A model generated the notes under the pieces. That model saw nothing but the letters and a program-made list of their open reading frames with translations. It searched no databases and was not told the DNA's origin. A stretch of 59,154 nucleotides of DNA, the filler included, from Basidiobolus ranarum (lineage: Eukaryota): the NCBI GenBank assembly GCA_040143965.1. It is 5 parts of 5 records of this genome, joined end to end, with 100 filler letters (N's around TTAATTAATTAA, not from the genome) between each part and the next. Parts side by side here need not be neighbours in the genome. Positions count along the whole stretch, not along the records: positions 11,892 to 23,652 come from JASJQH010000589.1; 4 more parts are not named here. One strand, 5' to 3'. Shown piece after piece: positions 11,792 to 23,652 of the stretch. The translations under genes were made by a program, and so were the position numbers. Within the stretch, counting starts at the first letter, position 1. Each line of letters opens with the position of its first letter.

Positions 11792-11891
11792 NNNNNNNNN
11801 NNNNNNNNNNNNNNNNNNNNNNNNNNNNNNNNNNNTTAATTAATTAANNNNNNNNNNNNNNNNNNNNNNNNNNNNNNNNNNNNNNNNNNNN
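11792..11891. other. Assembly gap with artificial TTAATTAATTAA linker
   Basis: 100-nt N block containing a six-frame-stop linker; identical structure at all four gaps. Confidence 0.97.
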
Positions 11892-11977
11892 CCAATCCAT
11901 TCGTGGAAGGAAATGGGGCCCTTAGTGGTGTTGGCTTTGAAATCAGGTGCGACACTACCGAGACGAAGAGCAGACAT
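11892..11977 (-). CDS. Second 1-Cys peroxiredoxin copy; only the 5' end is visible before the gap
   Basis: Sequence matches 14528-14613 (MSALRLGSVAPDFKANTTKGPISFHEWI); upstream region homologous but diverged. Confidence 0.8.
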
Positions 11978-12517
11978 ATTGAGTTGGTTTGGGTTGTTAA
12001 GAACAGAGAATGTACATTCCAGACTGGCCCAGTCGCCTATTTATATAAGTATGGGCAGAGTCGATCTCAGTTGGGCTTAGCCACATCTCAAACCTTAATT
12101 CCGCATCAATTATTACACTATCTTTCTACTTTATTCGCTATCTCCACGCACTCATCACACCATAAGGTAGGAAATCCACTAAAATCAGCAAAATATACCC
12201 ATTTAGTCTACCAACTCATGAACTTTGCATAGCGTTATCGAAGAGCAAATATACCTAATTTACTCGTGTGATGGCGACATCTAAATCTTCTCGTTCTTTC
12301 GAAAACTCTAACAAATCAATGATGACCTCGCCAATCACGAATATCATCCAATTGTATAACAGCAACCACCTCATCGGCCAGTGAACTTATACTTGTTTCC
12401 ATAAATCGACTTTCATATTATGCCATATAATGAAGTTAAGGATTGGGTCTGAGACATCCGAATTCACGTCAGCAATGTTGTTATGTTAGACATATAGTTT
12501 ATATAATACAAAATAAG

Positions 12518-13508
12518 TCAGTGTATTTCGGAAAACGACTTGAAAGACGTATCTTCCCTAATAATAATTGCAAGTGCATCTCTGGTGTGAATTCCATACA
12601 TTTCAACATCAATATTCCCAACAGGGCAAGTGATGGTAAAGTACATTTTGATAATTGACGCCTCACTCTTGAGGTCTTCGATTTCTTCATGAACTTCTGC
12701 CAAATCATCTTCATGTATATGGCTAAAGAATGAAGTACCTACCATATCCTCAGGACATAGGCCAAATAATTCTTTGACAGAATCAGTACAGAATAATATA
12801 TCACAACGATGTGTGTAATGATCTAACAAAAAGGCTGCTCGCATCTCCAGCTTCAAATTTGCAGAGTCGAATGGATCTTGGTAAATTATACTAGAGTGAA
12901 ATTCGGAATTTCGTCTGTATACCATCTTCTCTTCCTATATTTAGATAAATGTCTGTTAGTTGAAGTTATTTTCGAAAATAATCTAGTAGTAATATATTTG
13001 GTGTGGCTATTGTATGGTTGTAGCAAAAACCACTTACTATTCTTGTGACTCCGGCTTCGTCGATTAGATAGATTGCTTCAGCAAGCGCGTTTCGACCTAA
13101 ATACTCTAGTTTGAATTTTTTCACAAGTACAGAGATTAGAAACTTTTACTTACTCCAAAAATCCACAATGTTTATAGAATCTATAACTCGACATGTGCCT
13201 ACCACCCATGTGTAACAGAAACTTATTGTGCATTCCAAATAAACGCTCTGTCCAGTCTTCAGTCTGATGCGGGTATAGAATACTGAGGCGATTGTTTGCT
13301 TTAGCCGCTGCTCTTTGTATGCTAGATATGCGTTACTGACGTCAAGTTCGTGAAGAAAATCAAAAGTAGACCTATCGAGACATTCTTCTACTTCAAAACC
13401 AGTACCCTCTTTGATACTTGGTGTGGCATATATAATCTTAATGGGTGGTCCAAATTTGCTCTTCTTTGTAGCGTCGCCGATAATAGCGTAACTAATGTTA
13501 TGACTCAT
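12518..13508 (-). CDS. Tandem PAS-domain protein, ~3 exons (13508-13154, 13096-~13038, ~12934-12518)
   Basis: Two PAS-like segments: IIYATPSIKEGTGFEVEECLDRSTFDFLHELD and ILFCTDSVKELFGLCPEDMVGTSFFSHIHEDD. GTAAGT donors keep the frame. Confidence 0.75.
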
Positions 13509-13950
13509 GGAAACATCAAAAATCAATACTTCTTCGGAACAAGAGGGAAGTTTATATTCCTTGAATTCTCAACATATCATCGATAATGAATTTCACTACT
13601 TGGAATGTTACACCATAGTCTTGGGTTCGACAAGCAATCCACCTAAAATAGCTATTCTGAGCTCTCATCATTTTCCTTTGTAAGTCTAATTTCTGAACGG
13701 TCCATTGAAAGTACTGGTCGACAACCGTGTCACTGATAGCTCTTTGCCACCAAATAACAAGTACAAGTCAGACAGTACAATAGTGTTACAACCAGTGTTG
13801 ATTTAGTTACCAATCGCTAACCCTGGTGGGTTCAAAGATGACAGTATTGTGATGCTCAAAATTCATTAATTTATTAATCTTAATTATCTTTACGCCCTGT
13901 TACAGTTCATGTATCACTTAAATGCTTTGGTGCTTATACAGCCATCTGGA

Positions 13951-14613
13951 TTAAGCATCGGCTGGTAGAGAAGCGAAACGAAGGTAGGGTCTGACTTGTC
14001 TGTAGCCGGGGAACTCCTTCTCAGCCTCCTCATTGCTCACACTCACATGGACAATCACGTCCTTACCGGGGGTCCAGTTGGCTGGAGTGGCGATCTTCTT
14101 TCTGTCAGTCAATTGAAGGGAATCGATGACTCGGAGAATCTCATCGAAATTACGTCCACAACTGGCGGGATAAACAATCACTAAGCGAATCTTCTTGGCG
14201 GGATCAATGATGAACACACTGCGGACGGTGAATGGGATTCCGTTAACTACGTTGGTTGGGTCATGTTCTTCCGAGTCCAACATATCATAGAGTGTGGCTA
14301 CTTTGCGGTCGGCATCGGCAATGATGGGGAACTGAACGTCGACATTGCCAACCTCGTTGATGTCTTCAATCCATTTCTCGTGATCGTCTAAGCCGTTGGT
14401 GGACAGACCAATGGCCTTCACTCCACGCTTCTCAAAAGCACGAGAGAGTTTGGCAACTTCACCGAGTTCTGTGGTGCAGACTGGGGTGAAATCAGCAGGG
14501 TGGGAGAACAAGACAGCCCAAGAGTCACCAATCCATTCGTGGAAGGAAATGGGGCCCTTAGTGGTGTTGGCTTTGAAATCAGGTGCGACACTACCGAGAC
14601 GAAGAGCAGACAT
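13951..14613 (-). CDS. PRX1: 1-Cys peroxiredoxin (Prx6 family), intronless
   Basis: FSHPADFTPVCTTELG peroxidatic motif; YPASCGRNFDEILRVIDSLQL; TPANW. Confidence 0.95.
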   Translation of the reverse strand: MSALRLGSVAPDFKANTTKGPISFHEWIGDSWAVLFSHPADFTPVCTTELGEVAKLSRAFEKRGVKAIGLSTNGLDDHEKWIEDINEVGNVDVQFPIIADADRKVATLYDMLDSEEHDPTNVVNGIPFTVRSVFIIDPAKKIRLVIVYPASCGRNFDEILRVIDSLQLTDRKKIATPANWTPGKDVIVHVSVSNEEAEKEFPGYRQVRPYLRFASLPADA

Positions 14614-15132
14614 ATTGAGTTGGTTTGGGTTGTTAAGAGAAGAGAATGTGCATTCCAGACTGGCTTAGTCACCTATTTATACGAGAAGGTTTACTTGTGT
14701 TTAGCCACGTACTCAGCAAACCTTAATTTCACATCAACTATTACACCATCTATCGTTGTCTAACCATAAGAGACCTCTCGTAACGGACCTTTACAGCGCA
14801 ACCATAATATTCCAGTCAAATGGCGACATTAATGTGGTTGGTGAGGTTTGATTATTTGATGGCGACATCTTGTGTATTGATGATTAATTATCCAGGTTTT
14901 AGTCGAAATCTAAGTCCTGTGAAACGAACTCTCCTCTGAGGAAGAGGAATTGCTACATTAGTATAAACCAAATTATCTTTTCTATGCCTTGGTGTTCAAA
15001 AGATAGTCAACCTAATCCAACATTTACCATCAGATGTTGTTTACGTAATAACAAATCAAGGACCATGATAACTGATAATTGCTCATTTTCTACGTTACTT
15101 TCTTATTACCTCTAAGCTATTGAACTTTAATA

Positions 15133-16241
15133 ATGCCAAGTAACAAGGCCGAGATTGCTTGGGTTCCTTTAGAATCTAACCCAGAAGTTATGAATGAAGT
15201 TGGTATCCCCCCTTTCTTCCTCTTTCTCTCTATAAGAACTATGCAATATTACTAAAAGTATCAAACTGACCACCGGTTGCTTGTATAGTTCATTCATAAC
15301 TTGAAAGTTAGCAAAGTATGGAGTTTTACTGATATTTGGGGTAAAGACAATTGAATTATATACACTAGATTTCTAAATTCAGTGCTGAAATTTGACTCTG
15401 TAGGCCTCGATGACGATTTATTGCAAATGGTTCCTCAACCATGTGTATCACTTTTATTATTGTTTCCTATCACACCAGGGGTAAGTTTTACATCACAAAT
15501 ATTTCCACAAAATAGAATAATTAGGTTTACACTACTGATGCACTTATAGTACGAAAAGTTTCGTATTGAAGAAAGTAATAGATTAACAGAGAGCGGACAA
15601 CACATCAGTGATGAAGTTTACTTTATGAAACAAACCATTCGCAACGCTTGTGGCTCTATCGCAGTTTTACACTCCTTAGCCAATACAGCAGATAAAGTGG
15701 AAATTCGTATGTGTCTCAGACATTTTAGATAGATGACAGAGATTCCTTAATCATATTGTACCATTTTTATAGTGGACGGTCCTCTGAAAGAATTTCTTGA
15801 CAAAACTCAATCCTTAAGTCCCAGTGAGAGAGCAAAGGTTTTGGAAACTAGTGGAGAGATTGCTCAAGCTCATCAAGTCACTGCACAAAGTGGACAGACT
15901 CAGGTATGCTCAATGGTTTCCCTTGTTTCAAATGGTCTACGCTAATCCGCTGTCTCAGGCTCCTGATGCTGAGGATGATGTTGATCTTCACTTTATTTCT
16001 TTCATTGAACGTGATGGTGAAATCTATGAACTCGATGGTCGTAAACCTTTCCCTATTAACCATGGAAAGTGTGACTCCCTTTTGAAGGTAATTTTGGATT
16101 TGATTGCACAATATTTGCTACCGTTCGTGACATATTTGCTTTGATCAGGATGGCGCCAAACTTATCAAAAACTTCATGGAGCGGGATCCAGATCTCCTAC
16201 AATTTACTGTCATAGGATTGGCTCCTAGCCAAGACTTTTGA
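15133..16241 (+). CDS. YUH1: Ubiquitin C-terminal hydrolase (UCH-L3/Yuh1), multi-exon
   Basis: [30 protein letters not shown] (Cys); DLHFISF (His); [14 protein letters not shown] (Asp). Confidence 0.92.
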
Positions 16242-16473
16242 GATATTCCTTAGCAATAAGATTCACATCATGTGACCTTATTAGCTTACGTTTTCTATGT
16301 ATCGTGAATTTATATTGTATCTTTTAAAATGCCATAAATCAAATTCCCATTTGCATCAGAAATTGTGACTTACTTTCACTAGCAACAAACTTGGCTTCTC
16401 TCTTCCTTGCTACCATTTTTTTTGATATATTAAACTTGACTTTGAACTCCATTACTTCACTTGATTCCATAGA

Positions 16474-17413
16474 ATGTATACGCTACTGAATGGCTTCTAT
16501 AAATATTTAACTAGAACCGAAGAATATTATGTCATCATTTTGGGCTTAGATAATGCCGGAAAAACTGTAAGAATTGACCTTACAAGAACTTATTTCCATA
16601 ACTAGAGGAAATACTCGCCGACACTTGCTCAACTTACTTTTATACTATGCTAGACCCTTTTAGAAAAGATAAAATCCATTTTCACTGGTAGTAGAGGTCT
16701 GGCTCCTGAAAAGATTGCCCCCACTGTTGGTCTCAATAGTAAGTAACCAATCTGTTATTTCAACACTATATTATCTCACCATCTATTTTTCCATAATTTT
16801 TGCCGGCACTCTTCAGTTGGAAAGATTGTGGTTGGAAAATCTCGAGTGAATTTTTGGGATTTGGGTGGACAGAGAGACTTACGTACGTTATGGGAAAAAT
16901 ATTATAAAGAATGTCACGGTATAGTGTTTGTAGTGGATTCCACTGACTCTTCAAGAATTCAAGAGTGTCACGAAGCTTTTGGTAAATAGAAAATATCTTG
17001 TTTAGAGGGGGAAACTCCTCCCTTTATATTATGAGGTTTTAATTTGGCTTATTGGTACGATTTTCATTTCATTTTTATTACCTTGTGTAGAGAAAATGGT
17101 GGCACATGATTCAACAGAAGGAGTTCCGGTCATCATGTTGGCTAACAAACAGGACTTACCAAATGCAATGAAGGTAGAAGAAATCAAAGAGATCTTCAAT
17201 AAAATCGCGCTAAGTTTAGATGCTCGTGATAGTAAAGTCATGCCCATCTCAGCGCTAAATGGGTAGGTACTTTGGATAGACAATATAAAACTTCACAGTT
17301 ACTTAAAACAACACCTATGTTTATTTTCTAGGGAGGGTGTAAAGGAGGCCATTGAGTGGTTACATTTTCGTTTGGAACGCAACGTTGAGCACAGACCACC
17401 AGTATTACGTTAA
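16474..17413 (+). CDS. ARL3: ARF-related GTPase ARFRP1/Arl3, ~5 exons
   Basis: MYTLLNGFYKYLTRTEEYYVIILGLDNAGKT; IAPTVGLN; FWDLGGQ; LANKQD; C-terminal RPPVLR. Confidence 0.92.
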
Positions 17414-17770
17414 TTCATTATGCTAATTCATATATATTACATTGCAGTACTTTTTGAAGGGTTTTCTTTGGAAAGATAAACATTACGATTATCTTCAATT
17501 GTCAGCGTTCACTTTATTGTACATCTAGCAAAAATCCCGCCAATAAATGCACTTAATATTCATGTATAAATACCGAGATATATAGCCAATCAGTCAGTTG
17601 AAGTATTTTCAATTGGAAAAAAAACCCTGAAGTCTCACTGGGCAGGGGGGGAACCCTGATTTGCATTTCTAGAGAAAGTAATATATATACCTCTCAAATA
17701 GTTACTTGATCCTTACCTCTCTCCGCTACTTGGTAAGTTCTCTACCTCTATATGTCATAGTATTGTAATG

Positions 17771-17853
17771 TGAAATGATGATTGCTTTGCCGCCCCAGTC
17801 GGACTATCTTATCCATGGCGAGAATATAAGCAACAGCCAAAAATCTGAGTTCA
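17771..17853 (+). ncRNA. snR67: C/D box snoRNA, snR67/SNORD31(U31)-like; guides LSU P-loop Gm (yeast Gm2619, E. coli Gm2251 equivalent)
   Basis: Box C ATGATGA 17775-17781; guide TGCCGCCCCAG complementary to LSU CUGGGGCGGCA; degenerate D' CGGA 17800-17803 puts the second G at +5; box D CTGA 17845-17848; TGAA/TTCA terminal stem. Confidence 0.8.
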
Positions 17854-18021
17854 TACATACCATGATGCAAGCAACATTCTATCTCGTGCAACTTATTAAT
17901 CCCTGTATTTTCTAGTTACAGTAGCATGTATACAATGTACATATCCGCACATCGCACATGAATCCGTATAGAACCCGTATAAAATGGTAATTACTATTTT
18001 CTTTTATGGTTGGCGGTTGAT

Positions 18022-18120
18022 GGTTTGACTAGTGTGATGATACAATCAAAATATTCCATGCTAATTCGTAAAAACGATGCCGAGAAATTTTGTGCCCTTT
18101 GGGTTTACTGACTTCAAACC
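18022..18120 (+). ncRNA. snR53: C/D box snoRNA, snR53-like; guides SSU Am (yeast Am796 equivalent)
   Basis: Box C GTGATGA 18034-18040; guide TATTCCATGCTAAT complementary to SSU AUUAGCAUGGAAUA; box D CTGA 18108-18111; flanking stem GGTTTGA/TCAAACC. Confidence 0.8.
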
Positions 18121-18437
18121 TATCCTGCTGATTGGATTTAACGTGTCCCGATATTAATGATCTCTATTATTTTAGATATACCGATTATTATATAAATATG
18201 CAATTGTAAAATAAAATTATTTCAATCATCATCATTCGCAATCAATTGATTTACTGTTTAAATAGTCATCGAGTGTATACCAAGTTTGTGTTGAGATATC
18301 CTTTAAAAGAATGTCACAAATATGGATGTTTACTTCGTTTTGTTACCAGGGTTGGATAGCTATCACAATGTTTATGGTTGGTAAGTTTCAAGGGATACAT
18401 TTATTAATATGAGCAGTGTTGTGTGAGTAAAACAACA

Positions 18438-20141
18438 ATGAATCTTTCCAATACTGAACAAATCAACTTGATAAAGTTGGTAGTAGACGATGTAAATTAT
18501 TATTTACGCACAGTATGGGAGAAACATGCAGAAGAACCCATCTCCTTAACACTAACTCTGACCAATTGTGTTTCCTTTTGGAAGAAGAAAGGTAGTACTT
18601 ATAGCCATGAATATTCTCTCCTTTTTTAACTAATAGTTCGTATAGTTAGTGTTAGTGAACTCAATAAGTTGAAACCCAATTATATGAAACTCGAAGACTA
18701 TATAAACTTGACAGAACAAACTTTTTCTGGTTTACCGAACACTCTCAAAGAAGAAGTCTTCTGTACAATAGAGGAAAACCACTTCAGAGTACCTCATGCT
18801 TCAGTAAGAATGTATTTTGTACTACTATATAACACCACTTTTTAATTCCTTTTCTGTTGTTTGAAAAAGAAAATTTTGAAGTGGAGTCTCGAGCTGGAGA
18901 AAGGGAATAAGGTAAAATAATCAATCATATAGCCGCAAATATAATTTTAACATTATTATTAGTATGGTTTGGGTCAATTGGCTCTTACACCATTAGAAGA
19001 AGTGGATATCCCAAACGAGTGGATCTCTTGGCTTGATATTCTAATGAATGAACGAAACAATCATAAGGTGAGGGATTTCTCTGAAATGAATGGCTTCAAT
19101 ATCACTGCTCTTCTAACTCTTTTCCATGATTATTAGAAGGAAAACGAAAGGATTCAAAAGGAATTTTCAACACTAAATAGTACAAATAAGTTACTACATC
19201 AACAGTTGGAAAACCTAGTTAGAGATAAAAACGAAATGGAACTAATAATGGTTCACAAGGTAACTTCACAGTTCTTATCTTCCACCGAATTGAGGTTCAT
19301 GTGCAGTTCAGTTTAAAGATATTCTCAACGCCAAAAAGCGTAAGATCCGGAAGCTTTTGAAGGTCAAAGAAGGTATTTATTAGTCTTTATTTCTTATCAT
19401 TAGTCTTGCTCTGATTCATGCATATTAGTACGGCCTTCAGAGACACAGAGTACAGGTATAGAAGCGACAAAGTTAGTGCCACCAAGTAGATCCAATACGA
19501 GTAAGCCTAATTTGGGCAGGGCTATTTCCGAGAAAAAGAACTTGGTACCTATACCCAGGATTGACCAAGGTGTCTCAGCAGATAATAATATACCCAACGC
19601 CAACAAACACCACACTCCACCGAACGAAACACATCCAAGTAAACACATACCACCATCCAAGGAAGTATGCGAAGTCGTGAGTGTAGAAGGCGACCGAGAG
19701 AATCTAACCAGGCGACTTCATGCAACTCACTCTTATCCTTCATTGCCATCCAACTCGAAGAAGGTACCGAGACTCGAAAGGGCGCAGTCAGATTCATCAC
19801 CAATTATAAATTTACATACTTTCCTTGCCTCAAAAGTTCAGATTCAGACATCTATACAGCGGCTTTTAAATTTTGATGATTCCCCTACAAAAGAGCCCGT
19901 GGAAGAGCCTTTACTTCATGTTGTTGATGTTTGTAAGAGTACTCCAGAGAAAAAGACTCCTCAATCGCCTGAGCTCTTCCGAAGTTATTCTGACATATCT
20001 CCTGACCTATTCCCTAAAAGAAATCCCAAAAGGGACCTTTCAACTGATACCTCCCCGGAACTGTTTCCTAAAAGGAGCAAGCCCTCCAAATCACCTGTTA
20101 CTTTTCGAAGTTTTTCTCATAGAGTTCTTAGAAGTCCTTGA
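18438..20141 (+). CDS. XRCC4: XRCC4/Lif1-like NHEJ factor, multi-exon
   Basis: Beta-rich head (YYLRTVW, LTLTLTNCVSFW); coiled coil; FKDILNAKKRKIRKL resembles the XRCC4 ligase IV-binding helix (FxxVLNEKKxKIR); disordered Ser/Pro-rich tail. Confidence 0.75.
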
Positions 20142-20639
20142 TATGTTAGCAGTGCCGAGTTAACTATTCAGTTGTTAGTCATACACTAGATGAATCTTGT
20201 TGGCCAGAAATTGTAAATGTTTGCAATACAAGTACAAAAGCATTTACAGTCCAAAAATAACCTGCATGTTGCCTCTTATGCTGAGGTAAATTGGAGGGTA
20301 TTAGAGGGTAAATTAATCTCTTCTGGAAAGGGCTATATTTAATAAAGGTATCGGTTACCGAAAATCTCTCGATACCTTGTTTCAGCTATACAGTATCCTC
20401 TCAATACCGATACTAAACGATTAGCCATAAAGAATCGGCCATATGGAGGGCTTCAAAACCGATACCTATACATCAGAAATGAATTTAGTCCAATCAGTGA
20501 GTACTTTCTGTTTGTTATTTATAGGTATTCACCTATAGAATACCGCTGGAGAGTACCGTTGTATTGGTTGGAACAATAATGGAATATTATTTAAAGGTTG
20601 CAGGCAATCTTTGGAGAGGTTAATTCAGTTTATTTCATC

Positions 20640-21639
20640 ATGGATAGCCTTGCTTACAACGATCCCGATATGCTAGCTATGCTCGACACAGAGCAAAGAA
20701 ATCCTCGTACTACAGAGATGGACACTCTGCCAACAACGGATCTGCTAAAGCTTATGAATAAGGAGGACTACTATGTCTTGCAAGCCATCGAAGATGCAAC
20801 CGAGCCCATAGCTCAAGCTGTGGACTCTATCGCCCAAAGATTTAAAAGAGGTGGTCGGATAATTATGGCGGGTGCCGGTGCTAGTGGTCGAATTGGTGTC
20901 ACCGAAGCTGCTGAGATGCCACCCACTTTTAATTTGGATCCCAAATGTTGCGTTGCTCTTATGGCTGGTGGAGATGCTGCTATGTTGGGAGCATTAGAGC
21001 ATTTGGAAGATAATCCCGATTTGGCAGAAGGAGATTTGGAGAATCTACAACTCACCAAGGAGGACACTGTCATTGGTCTTTCAGCCTCAGGTAGTTCATG
21101 TTCATAGCTTGGAAATTGGGTATCGAAATTAATATTTTGCGGGGTTTCTAGGACGTACACCATATGTACTACAGGCTCTATTACACGCTAAGAAAATCAA
21201 CTCCGAAGTCTTAACTATTGCCATCACCACGAATCCTGGTACAATTATCGCCAAGACTGCTGATATCTGCATTGAGGCTTTGACAGGACCGGAGATAATC
21301 ACCGGAAGTACACGCTTGAAGTCTACCACTGCTCAAAAGTTGATCTTAGACATGATTACCAGTGCAGTCATGATCAAACTTGGAAAAGTTCACGGAAACT
21401 TGATGGTTAACCTTCAGCCTAGAAATTACAAGCAGCAAGTAAGAGCCATCCGTATTGTAGTCCAAGCGAGCGGATGTTCTTCTCAAGAGGCAGAAAGCTG
21501 TCTTAAAGAAAGCAAAAATGAATTAGCCCCTGCAATTGTTATGGCAATGGCCCAAGTAGATATTTCCACTGCGCTAGATGCTCTGGCCAAAACCGAGGGC
21601 ATTATCGGTCATGCAGTTCGTTTGTTACTCTCCAATTAG
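20640..21639 (+). CDS. murQ: N-acetylmuramic acid 6-phosphate etherase (MurQ family); 2 exons, intron 21091-21151
   Basis: TEQRNPRT; GGRIIMAGAGASGR; AEMPPTF; LEHLED; GLSASG|RTPYV restored by a 61-nt GT-AG intron; TGPEIITGSTRLKSTTAQK; GKVHGNLMV; KQQVRAIRIV. Confidence 0.9.
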
Positions 21640-22169
21640 TTGATTTATTAGTTAATTTACATAAATATTCCATAGCATAACTACCATAATATAACATTAG
21701 TGGGGTTTCCAAGTGCGACTCTTCTCTTTGACAAATTTGGCCATCGCTAAAGGTTAGGCTTAGGTTGATCAACTATGCAATGATGCCAGAATGTGTCACT
21801 ATAAATGCAAGGTATCTGAAAACATCCTTTATTCAAGCCAATGCTTATATGGAGTGACAAATGATGCACAATGACTAGCGCAACATCATCCAAAAAGCAA
21901 TAAACAAAGCAAGGTATTTTAAGCTACCAACTCCCAAAATACTTAACCTATTTGGATTATATTAAAACTTCAACTGAGCTAGTACTTTGATATTATCCAT
22001 AGCAGTAAGTTGTCAGTCACCTTTTGATTGATTTTCTATTACTTACCATTTGAAGTATACCCTAGCCCTAACCTTAACCTTAACCCTAAATAGCAATATT
22101 TAGGCAGACATGCTTATGCTTATTTTAAAAGTAATGTCGACATCGATGCGTTTCCTATAATTTCATTTG

Positions 22170-22276
22170 AATTTTACCAATTGCTCCTCTTTATACTAAT
22201 CTAAATTTTACCAATTGCTCCTCTTTATATTAATCTAAATTTTACCAATTGCTCCTCTTTATACTAATCTAAATTT
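22170..22276. repeat. Tandem repeat, 34-bp unit x3
   Basis: aattttaccaattgctcctctttatactaatcta repeated directly. Confidence 0.88.
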
Positions 22277-22279
22277 GAG

Positions 22280-23442
22280 TTATCGATCCTGGCCAAGGAG
22301 GAGAAGTAGTCGCTCAGTTCTTGCTCATCCGTGCTCGGGATCATGCGGCCTTACAGATGCGTAGTGCAGATCTAACCAAATATGACTGCCTGACCTTTCC
22401 AATCAAATTACGTATGTTCTTGAATAGACTGTTGGGGGACTCTATCGTGGAATTCATTTCGAGACGCGCTGCCGAGCTGGCCAAGCGTTGCAATCTCATT
22501 AATGTGATCGAGGAAGGAATGATAGCCTTCAACCACTTTTGTTATATTGACAAACTCCCGACGGAGGAGGAATTACTAATGCTATATGCAAGAGGAGCGG
22601 CACTCGTAGCACCTTGAGGTCAGAAGGGCGCTGATTTGATTATTATTTACCTTTTACCAGACGCCAAAGGTGACTACCTACTTTGTCCGGAAAACATTGG
22701 AATAATGGTCATTCAGGTCAAAAATTGGAAAACTGCAAAAGATAAGCGCTATAAAGTATCATCCACCACAAAGCTATCAACATCATCTATCGGTTTGGAA
22801 AGAGTACCGCGGCATATGTACCTTTCCTTTTATATGGGACTGGGTGGATGCTACGGCTATTGTGAATTTCCTCCAGACCTACCAGTGGAAATTGACGAAA
22901 CGGAGTTTCAAGATATCAATACAAAGTTAAAAGATTATCTCACCCGACCAGACTGCCCACAGTTATATGAACAGCAATTAGCATCTCTACGAAAATCTGA
23001 TCTCTCTGCACAAGAGTTGGAAATAATTCGTCGTAACCGGCAAGTATCATTTTCTGCTTTAGGATTTAGCAGTCAAGTGTATCCTTGCTTAAGAGAATTT
23101 GATGAAGAAATTCCAACTCGGAGCTGTACAACGGCTGCGCCCAGTACGCAGTTTCCGAAAAAACAATGAGTAAAGATTTGGCATGCTAAACGGTGTCCCG
23201 AGGAGAGTGTATACACCACCAATCTACTATTCCAACTAGATCGCATCCTAAAATGCTTTCCGGATCCAGTTGCTTATCACTCGGATTCAACAGAAAAGCA
23301 ACTGATACGGCGTATTGCAGTTCCGCAATATTTGGCTGGGCTCCACCCCATTAACACTCTTGAAACTCTCACAATTGATGATGATGATGATGGAGATGAA
23401 GCTGTTGAAATATTGGAACAACTCAATCCTAACGATGCATGA
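22280..23442 (+). pseudogene. 5'-truncated Crinkler-like PD-(D/E)xK (REase-fold) gene with two in-frame TGA codons
   Basis: GQGGEVVAQFLLIRARD...FNHF...RGAALVAP*GQKGADLII...VIQVKN. One frame runs 22321-23442, broken only by TGA at 22615 and 23167. Confidence 0.6.
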
Positions 23443-23522
23443 AGCTCGTGTCAATACTATTTTATGTGACTTGTTTTATTCAACTTCTATAGTATAGATA
23501 ATGTGAAAAATTAAAACTTTTC

Positions 23523-23652
23523 TTAGGGGGATGAAAAGCACCAGATGGTGTAGACTTTATTTAGCTCAAAAACTAATCTAAACAAAGTGACAATCAAGAA
23601 ATCAATCTTTTAAGATATTGTGACAATACTGGATCATATCCATACTTAACCT
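23523..23652 (-). repeat. Repeat terminus shared with 36313-36440 (possible non-LTR 3' end)
   Basis: ttagggggatgaaaag(c/t)a followed by similar AT-rich sequence at both sites. Confidence 0.4.

What the first reader, a model, noticed from the sequence alone, without database searches (positions are those of the whole stretch)
20640..21639. Bacterial-type peptidoglycan-recycling etherase MurQ with a spliceosomal intron
Seen: stand-alone, full-length (~310 aa) MurQ. Both catalytic Glu positions are retained (AEMPPTF and HLED, versus E. coli SECPPT and GAED), and a clean 61-nt GT-AG intron interrupts SASG|RTP. Some conserved residues deviate (GASGR for GTSGR; STTAQK for AGTAQK). Known: MurQ converts MurNAc-6-P to GlcNAc-6-P plus D-lactate. 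Inference: a domesticated horizontally acquired gene letting a fungus route bacterial wall sugar into chitin or energy metabolism. That implies unlocated muramidase, transporter and MurNAc/anhMurNAc kinase partners.
Basis: partly seen in the sequence, partly recalled or inferred. Interest (0 to 1): 0.7.

Follow-up and report, generated by a model that had tools for sequence, protein, structure and literature searches.

The report
Stand-alone spliced MurQ gene in Basidiobolus
The gut fungus Basidiobolus keeps a real, intron-containing gene for the enzyme that bacteria use to recycle their cell-wall sugar MurNAc; other fungi carry a related enzyme fused to its kinase, whereas this copy stands alone with an altered sugar pocket, so its origin and exact substrate are still open.

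Summary
The gene is real. Two exons and a 61-nt GT-AG intron give a 312-aa MurQ identical to a public Basidiobolus ranarum model and 78% identical to its B. meristosporus orthologue. It lies among fungal genes, passes all three MurQ family cut-offs and folds like H. influenzae MurQ. (1) MurQ is not rare in fungi: 28 of the best 120 longer relatives are named fungal proteins, 27 with a kinase domain on record. Free trees keep Basidiobolus outside that group, but no AU test rejects inheritance from it (p 0.43-0.66). (2) No AnmK, BadF/MurK, ROK or NamZ partner was found in the fragmented genome. What is distinctive: 12 of 80 strongly conserved columns differ in the window protein (median 2 in 447 relatives), while the recalled catalytic E92, E123 and K244 are kept. 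Best reading: a cytosolic MurNAc-6-phosphate etherase for digested bacterial wall (about 0.5); a shifted substrate or sensor role is a serious rival. murQ transfer is published for ants and ciliates, and this scan noted fungal MurQ genes on other DNA.

The parts
20640..21090 (+). murQ exon 1 (residues 1-150 and the first base of Gly151). A second Met at 20670 matches the start of the B. meristosporus model.
   Evidence: (NF003915 3-141, E 4.5e-47)
21091..21151 (+). 61-nt GT-AG intron, phase 1, inside the Gly codon of SASG-RTP
   Evidence: stops in all three frames, GC 0.36 against 0.47 and 0.44 in the exons; spliced product equals the public model. No RNA evidence seen.
21152..21639 (+). murQ exon 2 (rest of Gly151 to residue 312 and stop); end of the SIS domain and C-terminal lid
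   Evidence: (NF003915 143-296, E 5.7e-50)
20913..20915 (+). Glu92, aligned with H. influenzae MurQ Glu89 (catalytic role recalled, paper not held)
   Evidence: Alignment to 4lzj_A; kept in at least 85% of 447 relatives
21006..21008 (+). Glu123 of HLED, aligned with the Glu of GAED (E. coli Glu114; role recalled)
21430..21432 (+). Lys244, aligned with H. influenzae Lys239 (catalytic role recalled); the next residue is Gln where 446 of 447 relatives have Leu
11892..23652 (.). The 11,761-base contig (G000:C589) that carries the gene, with PAS-domain, 1-Cys peroxiredoxin, ubiquitin C-terminal hydrolase and Arf-family genes; no sugar kinase or transporter recognised on it
   Evidence: (N spacers)

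Best explanation
An old, selected, single-copy MurQ-family enzyme of the genus Basidiobolus that most likely still works as a cytosolic MurNAc-6-phosphate etherase. Proposed route: (1) secreted wall hydrolases break bacterial peptidoglycan in the gut or soil habitat (genes shown for CHAP, activity inferred); (2) MurNAc is released and imported (no muramidase-transporter set identified, inferred); (3) it is 6-phosphorylated, perhaps by one of the hexokinase-family genes, since no MurK, AnmK or ROK kinase was found (inferred, the weakest step); (4) the MurQ homodimer removes D-lactate to give GlcNAc-6-phosphate (fold and residues shown, activity inferred); (5) NagA and the chitin precursor pathway use the product (NagA genes shown). 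Origin is unresolved: about 0.55 for its own transfer from bacteria, about 0.45 for descent from the old fungal MurQ-kinase fusion with loss of the kinase half.
For: Passes the cut-offs of NF003915 (351 vs 168), NF009222 (349 vs 255) and the equivalog TIGR00274 (307 vs 302). AlphaFold model pLDDT 93.8; TM 0.90, rmsd 1.6 to H. influenzae MurQ 4lzj. 68 of 80 strongly conserved columns kept, including S82, E92, E123, S150, T153, K207, N242, K244. Constraint between the two species: 78 of 80 identical at strongly conserved columns against 73 of 125 at variable ones. A bacterial MurQ with the same TEAAEM segment lies next to a glucosamine-6-P deaminase and a BadF-type kinase (L101), so that part of the deviation fits a normal MurNAc setting. 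Genome holds 50 CHAP matches of 56 candidates, 2 full-length NagA genes among 10 matches and 13 hexokinase matches. Eukaryotic MurQ relatives can be active etherases (Naegleria, lancelet; bioRxiv 10.64898/2026.05.08.723886).
Against: No MurNAc kinase of a known family found: AnmK 0, BadF only an FGGY kinase, fungal fusion kinase halves 0, ROK 0; NamZ 0; the one GH25 gene has an in-frame stop. 12 of 80 strongly conserved columns differ (13 in the orthologue); only 22 of 447 relatives differ as much, median 2. A81, T209 and D217 each occur in 1 of 447 and Q245 in 0 of 447. The equivalog score passes by only 5 bits. No expression or activity data.
Confidence: 0.5

Rival explanations
1. Shifted substrate: with no dedicated kinase, the enzyme drifted to another amino-sugar phosphate and catalyses the same beta-elimination on it (for example GlcNAc-6-P dehydration as Streptomyces NagS does, or a de-N-acetylated or otherwise modified muramate phosphate).
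For: Rare substitutions cluster in three segments that carry the phosphate loop and the recalled catalytic residues (76-89, 209-221, 237-245), and all 12 sites listed are shared by both species, so they are fixed, not decay. Stem branch 1.0-1.5 changes per column against 0.33-0.37 between the species. No MurNAc kinase found. NagS shows that a MurQ-related SIS protein can act on GlcNAc-6-P (PMC12680351).
Against: Still scores as MurQ, and only at E 0.001 on a weak SIS subfamily model. Part of the deviation also occurs in a bacterial MurQ beside a BadF kinase and a deaminase (L101). I could not map the substitutions onto the ligand-bound structure.
Confidence: 0.3
2. Sugar-phosphate sensor or hexokinase regulator: the etherase site has been kept as a binding site, in parallel with what happened to vertebrate GKRP.
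For: Precedent: GKRP arose from MurQ and lost etherase activity in mammals (bioRxiv 10.64898/2026.05.08.723886). Partner kinase not found; 13 hexokinase matches in the genome.
Against: All three recalled catalytic residues are kept in both species. It is a single-domain MurQ (44-47% to solved MurQ, 16-18% to GKRP), without the duplicated GKRP layout. No binding partner was tested.
Confidence: 0.12
3. On origin: not a Basidiobolus-specific transfer but the vertically inherited fungal MurQ-kinase gene that lost its kinase half.
For: Fungal fusions form one clade at 98/93 in the careful 50-row tree, branching Harpellales, then Umbelopsis, then Ascomycota. AU p 0.427, 0.559 and 0.661 for Basidiobolus with all fungal rows or with Harpellales. 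Under one site profile the held trees score -18456.6 and -18453.4 against -18457.3 free. No fusion copy found in the genome. Not listed as a xenolog in the supplements of a survey that included B. meristosporus (PMC11291939).
Against: All 6 free trees placed it outside the fungal rows. It carries 3 and 2 of 17 fungal signature residues where left-out Harpellales carry 9, 9, 7 and bacteria 4.5 +/- 2.1. Identity is 46-47% to the best bacteria and 38-42% to fungal fusions. The best regrafting is a three-way tie with no branch uniting it with Harpellales; only 1 of 33 accepted placements is a purely fungal branch, on a backbone taken from the held tree. In the 62-row tree Harpellales did not group with the other fungi.
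Confidence: 0.45
4. Contaminant or decaying pseudogene.
For: Fragmented assembly of 13,754 contigs; many unusual residues.
Against: Spliceosomal intron, eukaryotic neighbours, GC like the window; orthologue in a second species at 78% with constraint at core columns; no bacterial sequence above about 50%.
Confidence: 0.03

Closest known systems
Bacterial MurQ (H. influenzae 4LZJ/4M0D, Y. enterocolitica 4S12; TIGR00274, PRK05441)
   Same: Single SIS domain plus lid, about 300 aa, 44-47% identity, TM 0.90, recalled catalytic residues kept.
   Different: Has an intron, no operon, no PTS, MurK or AnmK partner found, and 12 of 80 conserved columns changed.
Fungal MurQ-BadF kinase fusions ('glucokinase regulator family protein'; Furculomyces, Smittium, Umbelopsis, Aspergillus, Xylaria and others)
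   Same: Fungal MurQ domain, 38-42% identity; common descent not rejected.
   Different: They are 620-720 aa with a kinase domain and, in the three inspected, keep the canonical GTSGR, D, GT, N and KL residues. The Basidiobolus protein is 312 aa with no kinase.
Horizontally acquired murQ of Camponotini ants (PMC13320244) and anaerobic ciliates (PMC13198582)
   Same: A bacterial-type murQ kept in a eukaryote; the ciliate paper proposes peptidoglycan digestion (passages).
   Different: The ant gene has an identified Mollicutes donor, and the ciliates also acquired anmK and namZ. Here no donor and no such partners were found.
GKRP and the Naegleria and lancelet GKRP-type etherases
   Same: Eukaryotic MurQ descendants, some active etherases.
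   Different: Two fused MurQ repeats, about 600 aa, 16-18% identity to this protein.
Streptomyces NagS (GlcNAc-6-P dehydratase, PMC12680351)
   Same: SIS fold related to MurQ with a shared phosphate-binding mode.
   Different: A separate clade by that paper; this protein scores as MurQ. Its residues were not compared with NagS directly.

Membership tests
MurQ etherase (TIGR00274 / PRK05441) | Whole-protein score above the curated cut-offs | tested here: met
   351/168, 349/255, 307/302 bits
MurQ etherase (TIGR00274 / PRK05441) | SIS domain plus helical lid, MurQ fold | tested here: met
   (TM 0.90, rmsd 1.6 to 4lzj_B)
MurQ etherase (TIGR00274 / PRK05441) | Catalytic Glu, Glu and Lys (E. coli E83, E114; H. 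influenzae E89, K239; roles recalled, papers not held) | tested here: met
   E92, E123, K244 align with them
MurQ etherase (TIGR00274 / PRK05441) | Canonical pocket motifs GTSGR, LD-x-x-E, K-x-GT-x-x-K, N-x-KL | tested here: inconclusive
   Changed at 81, 88, 89, 209, 217, 245; the 88-89-93 changes also occur in bacterial MurQ L101. Effect on binding not mapped.
MurQ etherase (TIGR00274 / PRK05441) | MurNAc-6-P to GlcNAc-6-P plus D-lactate activity; homodimer | not testable with these tools
   Needs an assay; no complex prediction was run.
MurNAc catabolic pathway (MurP, MurK or AnmK with MurQ) | A dedicated route to MurNAc-6-P in the same genome | tested here: inconclusive
   AnmK, BadF/MurK and ROK not found with these queries in a fragmented, intron-containing genome; PTS, AmgK and transporters not searched.
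Fungal MurQ-kinase fusion | C-terminal BadF/NAGK-type kinase domain in the same chain | tested here: not met
   Stop at 21637-21639; the kinase half of P0124 found no match in the genome
Fungal MurQ-kinase fusion | MurQ domain belongs to the fungal clade | tested here: inconclusive
   Outside in 6 of 6 free trees; not rejected in 3 of 3 AU tests
GKRP | Two fused MurQ repeats, about 600 aa | tested here: not met
   312 aa, one SIS domain; 16-18% identity to GKRP chains
Basidiobolus-specific bacterial xenolog | Nested with support inside a bacterial clade, with the vertical alternative rejected | tested here: inconclusive
   One starred grouping (99/83) with a long-branch Ruminococcaceae MurQ that may be long-branch attraction; 33 of 93 placements accepted

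The most novel reading that the evidence does not exclude
After losing or never gaining its kinase, the Basidiobolus MurQ was rebuilt into something new: a lyase for a different amino-sugar phosphate, or a sugar-phosphate sensor that reports digested bacterial wall to fungal metabolism. This would be an independent parallel to the MurQ-to-GKRP change in vertebrates, in a fungus that carries about 50 CHAP wall-hydrolase matches.
Probability: 0.2. Interest if true: 0.75.

Novelty: new variant of a known kind. Interest (0 to 1): 0.42.

Why it matters
If it is an active etherase, a non-phagotrophic gut fungus would be using bacterial wall sugar as food, which gives a purpose beyond killing to its large set of wall hydrolases and points to an unidentified MurNAc kinase. 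If it is not, it is a natural case of the MurQ pocket being repurposed. Either outcome is cheap to test in E. coli. The wider point, that many fungi encode an untested MurQ-kinase fusion, is visible in databases; I found no paper on it in searches (open-access library only, so subscription reviews of MurQ distribution could already mention it).

Tried and rejected
Close bacterial donor: none found. Best non-Basidiobolus hits are 45-53%; exact-pattern scans found 0 relatives in 40 genome stretches and 0 in 180 metagenome stretches. The TEAAEM signature scan found 1 bacterial locus (L101); it groups with an unrelated E89 clade, not with Basidiobolus, so the match is treated as convergence. Ruminococcaceae L082 as sister: two long branches; with it removed the placement moved; no donor is claimed. 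The BadF hit L003 is an FGGY kinase. The first signature count (4 and 3 of 23) was circular for the fungal rows and was replaced by the leave-one-out count. Tree sets: 449 domains in FastTree, then subsets of 62, 50 and 52; the 50-row set dropped 18 long or redundant rows and added 6 top hits. Ligand-contact mapping was not possible because the structure papers were not held and a search for residue numbers gave nothing relevant. RNA support and intron positions in other fungi remain open. Supplements of PMC7466969, which list Basidiobolus HGT candidates, could not be read and may include this gene's orthologue. No complex prediction was run because a MurQ homodimer would pass by likeness to solved structures.

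Full report
Observation. The window is a string of contigs joined by N spacers; the gene lies on the piece 11892-23652, which is G000:C589. Exon 1 (20640-21090) and exon 2 (21152-21639) are separated by a 61-nt GT-AG intron with stops in all three frames. Spliced, they give 312 aa; unspliced, the frame stops at codon 156. The exons match consecutive parts of the MurQ profile, 3-141 and 143-296. The spliced protein is identical to KAK9763641.1, named by its source as Basidiobolus ranarum, and 78% identical to ORX88603.1 of B. meristosporus. Neighbours on the contig are PAS-domain, 1-Cys peroxiredoxin, ubiquitin hydrolase and Arf-family genes, so contamination is unlikely. RNA reads could not be examined, so splicing rests on homology and gene models.

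Family. The full protein passes NF003915, NF009222 and, by 5 bits, the equivalog TIGR00274. Its model (pLDDT 93.8) matches H. influenzae MurQ at TM 0.90 and rmsd 1.6, with GKRP far behind at 16-18% identity. E92, E123 and K244 align with the residues I recall as catalytic in E. coli and H. influenzae MurQ; the primary papers were not held, so these roles are recalled. Between the two species, 78 of 80 strongly conserved columns are identical against 73 of 125 variable ones, which indicates selection.

What is unusual. Against 447 other MurQ domains, the window protein differs from the consensus at 12 of 80 columns conserved in at least 85%; the orthologue differs at 13, the median is 2, and 22 of 447 differ as much. 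A81, T88, T209 and D217 each occur in 1 of 447, E89 in 6 and Q245 in none; all 12 sites listed are shared by both species. Most fall in segments 76-89, 209-221 and 237-245. A metagenome scan for the TEAAEM segment found one bacterial MurQ (L101), beside a glucosamine-6-P deaminase and a BadF-type kinase. It does not group with Basidiobolus, but it shows that this part of the change fits an ordinary MurNAc locus. The changes at 81, 209, 217 and 245 remain unexplained.

MurQ in other eukaryotes. Among the best 120 longer relatives, 28 are named fungal proteins from Harpellales, Umbelopsis and Ascomycota, 27 with a BadF kinase domain on record (the Candida boidinii entry has none listed). Transfer of murQ is reported for Camponotini ants (PMC13320244, passages) and anaerobic ciliates (PMC13198582, passages). 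GKRP-type proteins of Naegleria and lancelet are described as active etherases (bioRxiv 10.64898/2026.05.08.723886, parts 1-2 of 4). Basidiobolus is reported to have 2-5% bacterial-type genes, 39% of them with introns (PMC7466969, passages; supplements not readable). The orthologue's accession does not occur in the two supplements of a stricter survey that included B. meristosporus (PMC11291939, passages and supplement search). Searches listed no paper on a Basidiobolus or other fungal MurQ; I saw listings only, and the library lacks most subscription papers.

Origin. No relative outside Basidiobolus exceeds about 50% identity. All six free trees placed the pair outside the fungal rows, on a stem of 0.8-1.5 changes per column, and its neighbours changed with sampling. 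The fungal fusions formed one clade at 98/93 in the careful 50-row tree but not in the 62-row tree. Holding Basidiobolus with all fungal rows gave p-AU 0.427 and 0.559, and with Harpellales 0.661; in the 50-row set the held trees scored slightly better than the free one. Regrafting on all 93 branches of the Harpellales-held backbone accepted 33 placements, the best a three-way tie at the Harpellales stem. Leave-one-out signature residues favour a non-fungal source (3 and 2 of 17, against 9, 9, 7 for Harpellales and 4.5 +/- 2.1 for bacteria), but a long stem would erode such residues. I put a separate transfer at about 0.55 and vertical descent with kinase loss at about 0.45.

Partners. The genome has one murQ locus. 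Not found with these queries: AnmK, a BadF/MurK kinase (the one hit is an FGGY kinase), the kinase halves of two fungal fusions, ROK kinases and NamZ. The assembly has 13,754 contigs and is searched exon by exon, so absence is not proved. Found: 50 CHAP matches of 56 candidates (a lead from earlier scan notes), one GH25 gene with an in-frame stop, two full-length NagA genes among 10 matches and 13 hexokinase matches. Transporters, amidases and NagB were not searched.

Mechanism. The most likely reading (0.5) is a cytosolic MurNAc-6-P etherase that feeds GlcNAc-6-P from digested bacterial wall into NagA or chitin precursor metabolism. Fold, residues, constraint and downstream genes are shown; uptake, phosphorylation and activity are inferred, and the missing kinase is the weak step. 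A shifted substrate (0.3; precedent NagS, PMC12680351, passages and section 13) and a GKRP-like sensor role (0.12) are the rivals.

Verdict. A real gene and a new variant of a known kind. It is less surprising than first read, because fungi widely carry MurQ and eukaryotic murQ acquisition is in print. It remains worth a simple assay because this copy has no kinase attached and has a fixed, altered pocket. Interest 0.42.

Noticed in passing
L091:1420-2130 (G000:C8408): The only GH25 muramidase match in the genome has a hydrophobic N-terminus and an in-frame stop about two thirds of the way through; the frame continues behind it.
   Followed up: partly
G000, many contigs: 50 CHAP-domain matches, several in tandem on one contig (C251 three; C928, C2428, C7094, C7950, C9487, C859, C1249 two each).
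   Followed up: partly
window 11836-11940 and 13951-14664: The contig begins with a near-copy of the 5' end of the 1-Cys peroxiredoxin gene that lies complete 2.7 kb further on: a tandem duplicate or an assembly overlap.
   Followed up: no
window 22279-23442 (+): Three consecutive open stretches in one frame, separated by single stops, downstream of murQ; no Pfam match for the two scanned. An 'IQVKN' segment recalls Crinkler-type nuclease domains (recalled, untested). Looks like a decayed gene.
   Followed up: no
window 22170-22280: About three tandem copies of a 35-base unit downstream of the gene.
   Followed up: no
window 12440-13570 (-): Two PAS-domain open frames next to each other.
   Followed up: no
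L101:1448-2398 and P0354, P0380: A bacterial MurQ subgroup with E-A-x-E-M in place of D-A-x-E-C; P0354 is fused to a Ser/Thr protein kinase domain.
   Followed up: partly
L082:527-2328: A divergent, short (282 aa) Ruminococcaceae MurQ directly behind a BadF-type kinase; it was drawn to Basidiobolus in the trees that included it.
   Followed up: partly
P0124, P0134, P0135, P0165, P0275 and other fungal fusions: Fungal MurQ-kinase fusions keep canonical pocket residues in the three inspected and branch roughly like the fungi themselves in the 50-row tree; an untested one-gene MurNAc pathway that may be old in fungi.
   Followed up: partly
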